From Escherichia coli (GTDB taxonomy: Bacteria; Pseudomonadota; Gammaproteobacteria; Enterobacterales; Enterobacteriaceae), in assembly GCF_003334315.1 (NCBI RefSeq), contig NZ_QOWR01000006.1: a stretch of DNA of 64,000 bases; one strand, written 5' to 3'. Below are positions 3,001 through 6,000 of this stretch, in pieces (position 1 is the first letter of the stretch; the number at the start of each line of letters is the position of its first letter). A program made the position numbers.

Positions 3001-6000
3001 CTGAACATCCTGTTCGGTCAGGCCAACATAAGGTAAACCTTCAGCCAATGAGGTCGTGCCAGGATTAAACCAGGTGGTTTCTTTAAGAGCAACCAGATCC
3101 TTTACCAACGGATACTGGGCGATGAGCGAGTTCATTTTAGCGTTTTCCATAGTACGTCTCTTTGCGCTTAGATGATAAATGACAGCAGGAATGTGCCCGC
3201 CAGAGCGACGACTGAAGCGATAAATGTCGCTGTCGTATAGTATTTAAATGTTTCATTGAGCGTAGCGCCGCAATATTGCTTCACTAGCCAGAAAAGCGAG
3301 TCCGTAACGATCGTGCAGCCAATTGCACCTGAACCGATAGCAATCGCAATAATTTCCGGGCTGATGTCGGGATAAAGCGGCAGCATGGGTGCAACAATTG
3401 CCGTTGCCCCCATCATTGCCACGGTAGCGGAGCCCACTGCCGCATGCAGAATAAGAGCCACTAACCAGGCCAGAAGAATCGGGTGCATATGCATATTGGA
3501 GAGAATAACTGCCAGCGTATCAGCGAGACTGCTGCTTTTTAAAATGGCGTTGAATGCGCCTCCGGCCCCGATAATCAGCAAAATATTAGCAATAGAACCG
3601 AAGCCATTTTCCGTATGTGTGAGCATCGTCCCCATGCTCATATGCTGGCGTATACCCAACACATAATAGGCGACAAACACGGCGATAAACATGGCAGTGA
3701 TAGGGTTGCCAATAAACTCAACCAAGATATACAAACCACTCTCACGCGCCATATTCAATTCGGCAATCGTTTTAACCAACATCAGCGCAATGGGTAGCAG
3801 TATGGTGAATAACGTTGCGCCTAATGACGGTAGTGTTTTTTCATCGCGAACTTTGAGATCTGCAAACTCTGTGGGTACAGGTTTAAAGGGCAGTCGTTGA
3901 CCCAGAAATTTAAGGAAAAGTGGGCCACCGATCAGTGATGCCATCAGCCCAACCAGCAAACCGTAGACGATCACCGAACCGATATCTGCGCCCAGCTTAT
4001 TGGCAACATATAAAGCAGCCGGATGTGGAGGAACCACGCAGTGCACTGCCATCAATGCGGTACATAGCGGAATGGCAAGCTTTAATAATGAGGTATTGGT
4101 TTTTTTGGCAATTGAAAAAGCCAGAGGAATCAATAGCACGACGCCCACTTCAACAAACAGCGTGATGCCACAAATCAGGCCAACCAGCACCATAATGACA
4201 TCAACTGAAAGCCAGCGGCAGCGTTGAAGTGTCAGACCAATTCTTTCTGCGGCCCCGGATACTTCCATCATTTTTCCCAGTATCGTGCCAAGGCCGATAA
4301 CCGCTGCGAGGAACCCCAGCGTTCCGCCAATTCCACTTTCAATAGCATTTACCATATCCAGTGGCCCCATGCCCATCATCGTTCCCACGAAGAAGCTGGC
4401 CAGCAACAGCGCCAGAAACGGGTGGAATTTGAACTTCACGATGGTCAGTACAATTAACACGATGCTGATAAGCAGCGTGCTCACAACCCAGATTTGAGAG
4501 TGCATATCTCACCTTCCCCTGTGATTAACCTGATGATATTGGACAAAAAAACAACGCAGGCTGACAAACGATAAAATTTGCCTTTCACATGAGGTAAATT
4601 GCATCAATGGAGTGATTTACATCTAAAAATGAAGGTGAATTGAGATATGGTTCACTTTAGCTCATCTCATAGCTGAAATTTTGCCGCTATTTTTTTACAC
4701 TTAAGCGAAAAATGAGGTGATTATGGAACCCCTTCGTGAAATAAGAAATCGGCTGCTTAACGGCTGGCAATTATCAAAAATGCATACTTTTGAAGTGGCT
4801 GCCAGGCATCAGTCCTTCGCCCTGGCGGCAGAGGAATTGTCGCTGAGCCCCAGTGCGGTAAGTCACCGTATCAATCAGCTGGAAGAAGAATTGGGCATTC
4901 AGTTGTTTGTTCGTTCCCATCGCAAAGTGGAATTAACGCACGAGGGGAAACGTGTTTATTGGGCGCTAAAATCGTCGCTGGATACCCTGAACCAGGAAAT
5001 TCTTGATATCAAAAATCAGGAGTTATCGGGAACGTTAACTCTGTATTCCCGGCCCTCTATCGCCCAATGCTGGTTGGTGCCCGCATTAGGTGACTTTACA
5101 CGCCGGTATCCGTCTATTTCGCTCACCGTGCTCACTGGTAATGACAACGTCAATCTGCAACGTGCCGGAATCGATTTGGCGATCTACTTTGATGATGCGC
5201 CGTCAGCGCAACTCACTCATCACTTTCTGATGGATGAAGAAATCCTGCCAGTATGTAGCCCGGAATACGCTCAAAGACATGCTTTAACCAACACGGTAAT
5301 TAACCTGTGTCACTGTACGTTGCTCCATGACAGACAGGCATGGAGCAACGACTCCGGTACGGATGAATGGCATAGTTGGGCGCAACATTATGCGGTTAAT
5401 TTGCCGACATCTTCTGGAATTGGCTTTGATCGTTCTGATTTAGCTGTTATTGCCGCGATGAATCATATTGGGGTGGCGATGGGAAGAAAACGCCTGGTAC
5501 AAAAAAGGCTTGCCAGTGGTGAGCTCGTCGCGCCGTTTGGCGATATGACGGTGAAATGCCATCAGCATTATTACATCACCACATTACCGGGCAGGCAGTG
5601 GCCAAAAATTGAAGCGTTTATTACCTGGCTAAGAGAACAGGTAAAAACCACTTCATAATGAATAAAACCACGAGTTCCTGGTGTGCCTTATTCGGCCTGC
5701 TAGTTCGAATTTAATTTACGGTTTTTATGTGGTTTTAGGGATAAACACAAGGATGGTGTCCCCTGCAGGAATCGAACCTGCAATTAGCCCTTAGGAGGGG
5801 CTCGTTATATCCATTTAACTAAGAGGACAATGCGGCATGAGTATACCCGCTAATGGAGTGCGGGGTAAGTACGCTGCCGCTCGATTGCTTAAACCCTCGC
5901 CATTTATGCCGGGTTTTTATAATTTTTCTTAATGTTTTCCGCACGTTCTGCTTTTTGGCGTGCTTCTGCTTTACGCTTATTGCTCATGTCGTTACGAATC

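What the first reader, a model, noticed from the sequence alone, without database searches (positions are those of the whole stretch)
5659..5903. Unoccupied tRNA-Arg (argW) integration site: dsdC lies about 95 bp from the tRNA
In E. coli K-12 the CPS-53/KpLE1 prophage remnant sits at argW and separates it from dsdC. Here the dsdC stop (5658) and the 3' end of argW (5754) are about 95 bp apart, with no integrase or phage gene and no obvious duplicated tRNA 3' end. This is an empty attB, so the strain is not K-12-like at this hotspot.
Basis: partly seen in the sequence, partly recalled or inferred. Interest (0 to 1): 0.3.

Follow-up and report, generated by a model that had tools for sequence, protein, structure and literature searches.

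The report
Empty argW phage integration site
This stretch is the intact tRNA-Arg (argW) gene of E. coli with no prophage inserted at its 3' end, a common and well-described state that about one in six complete E. coli genomes share, so it is ordinary.

Summary
argW (tRNA-Arg, anticodon CCU) lies at 5754-5828 on the minus strand. The dsdC stop is at 5658, the spacer is 95 bp, and yfdC ends at 5904. In K-12 MG1655 the 10.2-kb CPS-53/KplE1 prophage lies between argW and dsdC. The window is collinear with K-12 once that prophage is removed. The two alignment blocks overlap by exactly the published 16-nt core CTGCAGGGGACACCAT (window 5753-5768). Phages HK620, Sf6 and N7 carry the same core in attP. 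K-12 attL and attR are the recombinant halves, and the window is the parental B-O-B' attB. The core occurs once in the window, and no CPS-53 DNA or protein homologue is present. Of 5,426 complete E. coli genomes, 938 (17%) have the same uninterrupted junction and 1,863 (34%) have an IntS-type integrase gene beside argW. Others carry the csc sucrose genes or other islands. K-12 does keep the same 95-bp distance, but only to a 15-nt argW duplicate (pawZ). Its functional argW is 10.3 kb from dsdC. Whether the site was never occupied or was cured by scarless excision cannot be decided from sequence. Already known; low interest.

The parts
4723..5658 (+). dsdC (LysR-type regulator of D-serine catabolism), the gene flanking the B' side of the site
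   Evidence: ORF ending at 5658. 311 aa, 310/311 identical to K-12 DsdC. Annotated dsdC in the identical strain 214-4.
5659..5752 (.). Chromosomal spacer between the dsdC stop and the att core (B' arm of attB). It holds no gene, no phage remnant and no Rfam match.
   Evidence: Window 5664-5768 is 100% identical to the DNA between pawZ and dsdC in K-12 strains (H39-H42). Stops in all six frames. No Rfam hit at E<=1 other than the tRNA and one sub-threshold match (Plastid-ycf2, 24.8 bits against a gathering score of 65.7) over the tRNA itself. Folding energy no better than shuffles, z -0.02 and -0.38.
5753..5768 (-). 16-nt att core CTGCAGGGGACACCAT (O). It comprises the last 15 nt of argW (end of the T-stem, the 3' strand of the acceptor stem, the discriminator base and CCA) plus 1 nt downstream. 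Single copy.
   Evidence: Exact single match in the window. Identical to the duplicated core at both ends of CPS-53 in K-12 and to the attP cores of HK620, Sf6 and N7; the cores of HK620 and Sf6 are annotated as such in their records. Published as the KplE1 core (PMC2951348).
5754..5828 (-). argW, tRNA-Arg(CCU), intact
   Evidence: ARAGORN. Rfam tRNA 63.4 bits. 75/75 identical to K-12 argW.
5829..5903 (-). Spacer between the yfdC stop and the argW 5' end (B arm side). It presumably holds the argW promoter. A TATACT hexamer at 5845-5840 lies 11 nt upstream of the tRNA 5' end (by eye only).
   Evidence: Read directly. The consensus promoter/terminator scan called nothing in 5500-6050, so the promoter assignment is inference only.
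5904..6836 (-). yfdC (formate/nitrite transporter family), the gene flanking the B side
   Evidence: ORF of 310 aa. 309/310 identical to K-12 YfdC. Annotation in strain 214-4.

Best explanation
Window 5659-5903 is the native dsdC-argW-yfdC intergenic region with the argW attachment site in its unrecombined, unoccupied form (B-O-B'). The 3' end of argW carries the 16-nt core CTGCAGGGGACACCAT. Tyrosine integrases of the IntS type (KplE1/CPS-53, Sf6, HK620, Kapi1 and relatives) exchange strands between this core and the identical core in their attP. Because attP supplies a copy of the tRNA 3' end, integration leaves argW intact and puts a short duplicate next to dsdC, as seen in K-12 (pawZ). Nothing has been inserted here. 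The strain has one core, an intact tRNA and an intact dsdCXA locus. It should therefore be open to lysogeny at this site by phages that carry an IntS-type integrase. Shown here: the anatomy, identity of the core with attP cores, the Campbell-type relation to K-12 attL and attR, and how common the state is. Inferred: that the site is competent for integration. This rests on published work with Kapi1 in another strain with an empty site. Also inferred: that the empty state was inherited within a widespread lineage rather than produced by recent curing.
For: argW is intact and identical to K-12. In-silico excision of CPS-53 from K-12 gives a sequence that aligns to the window without gaps over 4,637 bp with 5 mismatches. 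Whole-window blastn gives window 1-5768 against K-12 2482351-2476584 and window 5753-64000 against 2466384-2408110, overlapping by exactly the 16-nt core. The window left arm equals the K-12 attL left arm over 30/30 nt. The window right arm equals the K-12 attR right arm over 30/30 nt. HK620, Sf6 and N7 attP share only the 16-nt core with the window, and their arms match the other two K-12 arms closely. The core is single-copy at up to 3 mismatches. No CPS-53 homologues are present. 938 of 5,426 complete E. coli genomes have the same uninterrupted junction, and 911 have dsdC-argW-yfdC contiguous. Uninterrupted junctions also occur with spacer alleles only 94.6-96.9% identical (H5, H36, H37), so the state is seen with more than one spacer allele. 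All 60 top-ranked genomes, from humans, pigs, poultry, frogs and water, share both the empty junction and the window's minority yfdF-fadL allele at >=99.9%. 23 phage records encode integrases >=95% identical to IntS, including CUS-3, Sf6, HK620, Kapi1, HK633, IME10 and the Stx2 phage VT2phi_272. Published work gives the KplE1 16-nt core and shows that the prophage can excise (PMC2951348). It also shows that Kapi1 integrates between yfdC and dsdC at this core and that deleting the attB abolished integration there: 0/24 colonies against 19/20 (PMC8787464).
Against: Nothing in the sequence contradicts an unoccupied site. Three limits apply. Integration competence was not tested in this strain. 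Site-specific excision leaves no scar, so the history of the site is not recorded in the sequence. The genome survey over-represents K-12 laboratory derivatives and clinical lineages, so 17% and 34% are collection frequencies, not population frequencies.
Confidence: 0.95

Rival explanations
1. The site is empty because a CPS-53/KplE1-like or Sf6-like prophage was once present and was lost by precise IntS plus TorI (excisionase) recombination, which regenerated attB without a scar.
For: The window is close to K-12 (collinear, about 99.1-99.6% identical), and K-12 carries CPS-53. IntS-type integrase genes sit beside argW in 34% of complete genomes, so occupied ancestors are plausible. KplE1 is reported to excise in vivo despite being defective (PMC2951348). 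The junction is exactly what excision would produce.
Against: The junction is equally what a never-occupied site looks like. The empty state is shared by at least 60 genomes carrying the same minority yfdF-fadL allele from many hosts and countries. It also occurs with divergent spacer alleles. That fits an inherited state more simply than repeated recent curing. No sequence feature discriminates between the two histories.
Confidence: 0.25
2. The empty junction is an assembly artefact: a prophage flanked by the duplicated core was collapsed out of the sequence.
For: None was found. In principle, repeats at prophage ends can mislead assemblers.
Against: The repeat is only 16 nt, far too short to collapse an assembly. 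938 independent complete genomes show the identical junction, several at 100% identity over 901 bp (H1 and H2) and over 5.6 kb.
Confidence: 0.01
3. The region holds a degraded remnant of an island (integrase fragment, partial att site, or a csc/dsd rearrangement) and is not a clean attB.
For: The argW-dsdCXA region is described as hypervariable (PMC8787464; PMC4366372). Other genomes have csc genes in place of dsdC/dsdX, a 24-nt argW duplicate followed by a serine recombinase/HNH/replication island, or a second full tRNA copy next to another integrase.
Against: dsdC, dsdX and dsdA are full length. DsdC is 310/311 identical to K-12. The spacer is identical to K-12 backbone. There is no CPS-53 DNA or protein similarity and no second core.
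Confidence: 0.02

Closest known systems
attB of phage Kapi1 in E. coli KP7 (tRNA argW between dsdC and yfdC), PMC8787464
   Same: Same chromosomal position, between dsdC and yfdC, with the same tRNA. The window carries 16 of the 17 nt of the reported att sequence AATGGTGTCCCCTGCAG as ATGGTGTCCCCTGCAG. The site is unoccupied in the prophage-free strain.
   Different: The base preceding the 16-nt core is G in the window (5752) and A in the 17-bp Kapi1 site. The strain background differs. Integration was shown experimentally in KP7, not here.
CPS-53/KplE1 cryptic prophage at argW in E. coli K-12 (attL, attR/pawZ), PMC2951348
   Same: Same argW, same 16-nt core, same outer flanks. The window's B arm equals the outer arm of attL and its B' arm equals the outer arm of attR.
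   Different: K-12 has 10,215 bp of prophage (intS to torI) between the two core copies. The window has one core and no prophage.
attP of Lederbergvirus phages HK620 and Sf6 (annotated attP core)
   Same: Identical 16-nt core. Their integrases are 98.7-99.2% identical to K-12 IntS.
   Different: Their arms are phage DNA (P and P') carrying the arm-type integrase and excisionase binding sites. The window has only the bacterial arms.
csc sucrose-utilisation locus at argW (e.g. strain B1W1; E. coli W and O157 type)
   Same: Same hotspot next to argW (PMC4366372).
   Different: There, cscR/A/K/B replace dsdC and most of dsdX. In the window dsdCXA is intact and no csc genes are present.

Membership tests
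Unoccupied attB of IntS-type (KplE1/Sf6/HK620/Kapi1) tyrosine integrases at argW | Intact tRNA-Arg(CCU) gene argW between yfdC and dsdC | tested here: met
   ARAGORN and Rfam calls. 75/75 identity to K-12 argW. Flanking genes identified.
Unoccupied attB of IntS-type (KplE1/Sf6/HK620/Kapi1) tyrosine integrases at argW | Core sequence identical to the phage attP core (CTGCAGGGGACACCAT) at the tRNA 3' end | tested here: met
   Exact match at 5753-5768 on the minus strand. Identical core in HK620, Sf6 and N7 attP and at both K-12 junctions. The published core is the same.
Unoccupied attB of IntS-type (KplE1/Sf6/HK620/Kapi1) tyrosine integrases at argW | Only one core copy, with no foreign DNA between the bacterial arms (B-O-B') | tested here: met
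   One match in 64 kb at up to 3 mismatches. The arms are contiguous with the K-12 attL outer arm and attR outer arm, 30/30 nt each. Gapless alignment to in-silico excised K-12.
Unoccupied attB of IntS-type (KplE1/Sf6/HK620/Kapi1) tyrosine integrases at argW | Supports integrase-mediated recombination with attP | not testable with these tools
   Supported only by analogy. Kapi1 lysogenised KP7 at this site, and deleting attB abolished integration there (PMC8787464).
CPS-53/KplE1 prophage (K-12 state) | intS integrase beside argW, torI excisionase and a duplicated core (pawZ) beside dsdC | tested here: not met
   No significant intS, torI or other CPS-53 protein or DNA similarity in the window. 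Single core.
csc (sucrose) replacement of dsdCX at argW | cscR/A/K/B between dsdA and argW, with dsdC absent and dsdX truncated | tested here: not met
   Full-length dsdA (442 aa), dsdX (445 aa) and dsdC (311 aa) ORFs. Compare strain B1W1.

The most novel reading that the evidence does not exclude
The most novel reading not excluded is that this lineage descends from a CPS-53-type or Sf6-type lysogen and lost the prophage by scarless IntS/TorI excision. On that reading the empty site records a curing event rather than a never-occupied site. Either way, the intact single attB predicts that the strain can be lysogenised here by IntS-type phages. These include O-antigen-modifying P22-like phages and at least one Stx2 phage whose integrase is 97.9% identical to IntS (VT2phi_272).
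Probability: 0.25. Interest if true: 0.15.

Novelty: already known. Interest (0 to 1): 0.08.

Why it matters
It matters little beyond annotation. It tells an annotator that this strain lacks CPS-53/KplE1 and so lacks its cargo: the yfdGHI O-antigen glucosylation genes, torI, yodE and the rest. It keeps a complete D-serine locus (dsdCXA) rather than the csc sucrose genes. It also has a free landing site for Sf6, HK620 or Kapi1-type temperate phages. The argW-dsdCXA region is an established hypervariable hotspot in E. coli, and the empty state is one of its common documented forms. No open question becomes testable through this finding.

Tried and rejected
1. Searched for a second att copy with the 16-nt core at up to 3 mismatches over the whole window. 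Only the argW copy was found, and chance expectation is 0.47.

2. Searched for direct and inverted repeats in 5000-6900. Only 10-30-nt low-identity or short matches turned up, inside dsdC or yfdC. None flanks the tRNA in a way that suggests att remnants.

3. Looked for integrase or phage remnants with blastn of CPS-53 DNA and tblastn of 14 CPS-53 proteins against the window. Only weak or chance hits appeared, none near the site. The yfdR hit lies in the housekeeping gene yfbR, and the best IntS hit has E 0.75 at 44.8 kb.

4. Looked for a hidden RNA or regulatory element in the spacers. Rfam at E<=1 gave only the tRNA and one sub-threshold match (Plastid-ycf2, 24.8 bits against a gathering score of 65.7) over the tRNA itself. 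The promoter/terminator consensus scan found nothing. Folding energies of both spacers were no better than shuffles, z between -0.02 and -1.1. The TATACT hexamer upstream of argW is therefore only a by-eye suggestion.

5. Considered that the window might be a K-12 derivative cured of its prophage in the laboratory. Rejected: the window differs from MG1655 by hundreds of substitutions and has a FadL only 77% identical.

6. Tried to read Moritz and Welch 2006 (PMC1698345) on the argW-dsdCXA island. It is not held, so it is cited only through the papers that reference it.

7. Could not obtain an exact per-genome classification of all 5,426 argW loci, because the search tool lists at most 60 rows. 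Only the summary counts and sampled examples are reported.

Full report
**What is in the sequence**

ARAGORN finds one tRNA gene in the whole 64-kb window: tRNA-Arg with anticodon CCT at 5754-5828 on the minus strand. Rfam's tRNA model matches at 5757-5828 with 63.4 bits. The gene is identical over all 75 nt to argW of E. coli K-12 MG1655.

The flanking genes are as follows.
- dsdC lies on the plus strand and ends at 5658. The annotated 936-bp gene corresponds to 4723-5658, and the protein is 310/311 identical to K-12 DsdC.
- The spacer 5659-5753 is exactly 95 bp.
- yfdC lies on the minus strand at 5904-6836 and is 309/310 identical to K-12 YfdC.

The tRNA 3' end points towards dsdC. The coordinates and the 95-bp figure are correct.

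**Comparison with K-12**

MG1655 is annotated as yfdC, argW (2466309-2466383), cryptic prophage CPS-53 (2466369-2476583, running from intS to torI), pawZ (2476584-2476598, a 15-nt pseudo-copy of the argW 3' end), then dsdC (ending at 2476694).

I joined K-12 at the end of argW to the base after pawZ. The product aligns to the window without a gap over 4,637 bp with 5 mismatches.

A blastn of the whole window against 84 kb of K-12 gives two collinear blocks:
- window 1-5768 against K-12 2482351-2476584;
- window 5753-64000 against K-12 2466384-2408110.

They overlap by exactly 16 nt, window 5753-5768. On the tRNA strand this is CTGCAGGGGACACCAT. It is the same 16-nt duplicated core published for KplE1/CPS-53 (PMC2951348).

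K-12 also has 95 bp between the dsdC stop and pawZ. The 95 bp is therefore chromosomal backbone, not phage residue. The functional argW is 10.3 kb from the dsdC stop.

**The Campbell relation**

I fetched the int-attP regions of phages HK620, Sf6 and N7. All three carry the same 16-nt core, and HK620 and Sf6 have it annotated as 'attP core'. Outside the core they share nothing with the window.

The four arms fit together as the Campbell model predicts.
- The K-12 attL left arm is 30/30 identical to the window's tRNA-side arm, and its right arm matches the phage P' arm closely.
- The K-12 attR left arm is the phage P arm, and its right arm is 30/30 identical to the window's dsdC-side arm.

So the window is B-O-B', the phages are P-O-P', and K-12 carries B-O-P' and P-O-B'.

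On the tRNA, the core covers the last four bases of the T-stem, the 3' strand of the acceptor stem, the discriminator base, CCA, and one base beyond. I read this from the sequence. This is why integration regenerates an intact tRNA.

**Absence of remnants**

- The core occurs once in the window with up to 3 mismatches allowed.
- The repeat search around the site returned only short matches inside dsdC and yfdC.
- CPS-53 DNA and 14 CPS-53 proteins found nothing significant in the window. The only noteworthy hit is YfdR against the housekeeping gene yfbR, far from the site.
- All six frames of the spacer contain stop codons.
- No other Rfam family, consensus promoter or terminator, or unusually stable fold was found in either spacer.
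- A TATACT hexamer 11 nt upstream of the tRNA 5' end (5845-5840, minus strand) may be the argW -10 element. That is a reading by eye, and the scan did not call it.

**How common the state is**

Among 5,426 complete E. coli genomes:
- 938 (17%) contain the 180-bp spacer-plus-argW junction uninterrupted;
- 911 contain the 901-bp dsdC-argW-yfdC segment in one piece;
- 1,863 (34%) have argW followed directly by an intS-type integrase gene.

The rest are varied.
- Strain B1W1 has cscR/A/K/B in place of dsdC and most of dsdX. This matches the literature on sucrose genes at argW (PMC4366372).
- AST19 has a 24-nt argW duplicate next to dsdC, followed by a serine recombinase, an HNH endonuclease and a replication gene.
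- O145:H28 RM12581 has a full-length tRNA-Arg copy next to dsdC, followed by a different tyrosine integrase.

Uninterrupted junctions also occur with spacer alleles only 94.6-96.9% identical to the window, so the empty state is seen with more than one spacer allele. All 60 top-ranked genomes, from humans, pigs, poultry, frogs, birds and water, share both the empty junction and the window's uncommon yfdF-fadL allele at 99.9% identity or more. These figures describe the collection, which is rich in laboratory K-12 derivatives and clinical isolates. They are not population frequencies.

**Mechanism and consequences**

Shown here: the site has every sequence feature of the substrate used by IntS-type tyrosine integrases.

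Known from the literature:
- KplE1 is bordered by this core and can still excise (PMC2951348).
- Kapi1 integrates between yfdC and dsdC at this sequence. The prophage-free strain KP7 has the same empty arrangement.
- Deleting the attB abolished integration at this locus: 0/24 colonies against 19/20 for wild type (PMC8787464).

In the phage collection, 23 records encode integrases at least 95% identical to IntS. They include CUS-3, Sf6, HK620, HK633, IME10, Kapi1 and the Stx2 phage VT2phi_272.

Inferred: this strain could be lysogenised at argW by such phages if they can adsorb to it.

Not decidable from sequence: whether the site was never occupied or was cured, because site-specific excision leaves no scar. 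I rate curing at about 0.25. The empty state is shared by a broad set of related genomes and also occurs with divergent spacer alleles, which inheritance explains more simply.

**Verdict**

The feature is an ordinary, well-documented state of a known integration hotspot. Novelty: already known. Interest: low.

**Seen in passing**

The window is otherwise collinear with K-12 at about 99.1-99.6% identity. There are three exceptions.
- The fadL allele is strongly divergent. FadL is 77% identical in protein, with the differences clustered. The yfdF-fadL segment is at least 99% identical in only 198 of 5,426 genomes.
- YfdF is 92% identical to K-12.
- A 26-bp deletion in the yfbR-yfbS intergenic region removes one arm of a REP-like hairpin.

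Noticed in passing
window 9490-10836 (minus strand), fadL: The FadL allele is strongly divergent. It is only 77% identical in protein to K-12 FadL, and the differences cluster in blocks (K-12 residues about 82-94, 136-151, 183-229, 261-291 and 419-428). DNA identity to K-12 falls to 74-78% in 9500-10500. The yfdF-fadL segment (7900-10900) is at least 99% identical in only 198 of 5,426 complete E. coli genomes and 80-95% in nearly all the others. FadL is annotated as the phage T2 receptor, so the variable blocks may be surface loops under phage selection. That last point is inference and was not tested.
   Followed up: partly
window 8067-9125 (minus strand), yfdF: YfdF is 92.3% identical to K-12 YfdF, against 99.7% for the neighbouring YfdC and DsdC. 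It belongs to the same divergent block as fadL. Some RefSeq records name this gene icaT.
   Followed up: partly
window about 62626 (yfbR-yfbS intergenic region): A 26-bp deletion relative to K-12 removes one arm of a REP-like hairpin (GCGTCGCATCAGGC...GCCGGATGCGAC). The end points lie in a CATCAGGC direct repeat.
   Followed up: partly
L006 7454-8893 (E. coli O145:H28 RM12581): A complete 75-nt tRNA-Arg copy sits 95 bp from dsdC. Similarity to the window stops exactly at the tRNA 5' end. A different tyrosine integrase gene and lambdoid-type prophage genes follow. This element appears to use a much longer stretch of argW as its att site, or to integrate on the other side of the gene. The far junction was not examined.
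   Followed up: partly
L008 4001-4874 (E. coli AST19): A 24-nt duplicate of the argW 3' end lies next to dsdC, compared with 16 nt in K-12. It is followed by a serine recombinase family gene, an HNH endonuclease and a replication protein gene. This is a third kind of element at the same hotspot.
   Followed up: no
window 44429-46131: Two adjacent segments, corresponding to hisJ and argT, match each other's K-12 counterparts at about 70% DNA identity. This is the known hisJ/argT paralogue pair and not an anomaly.
   Followed up: no
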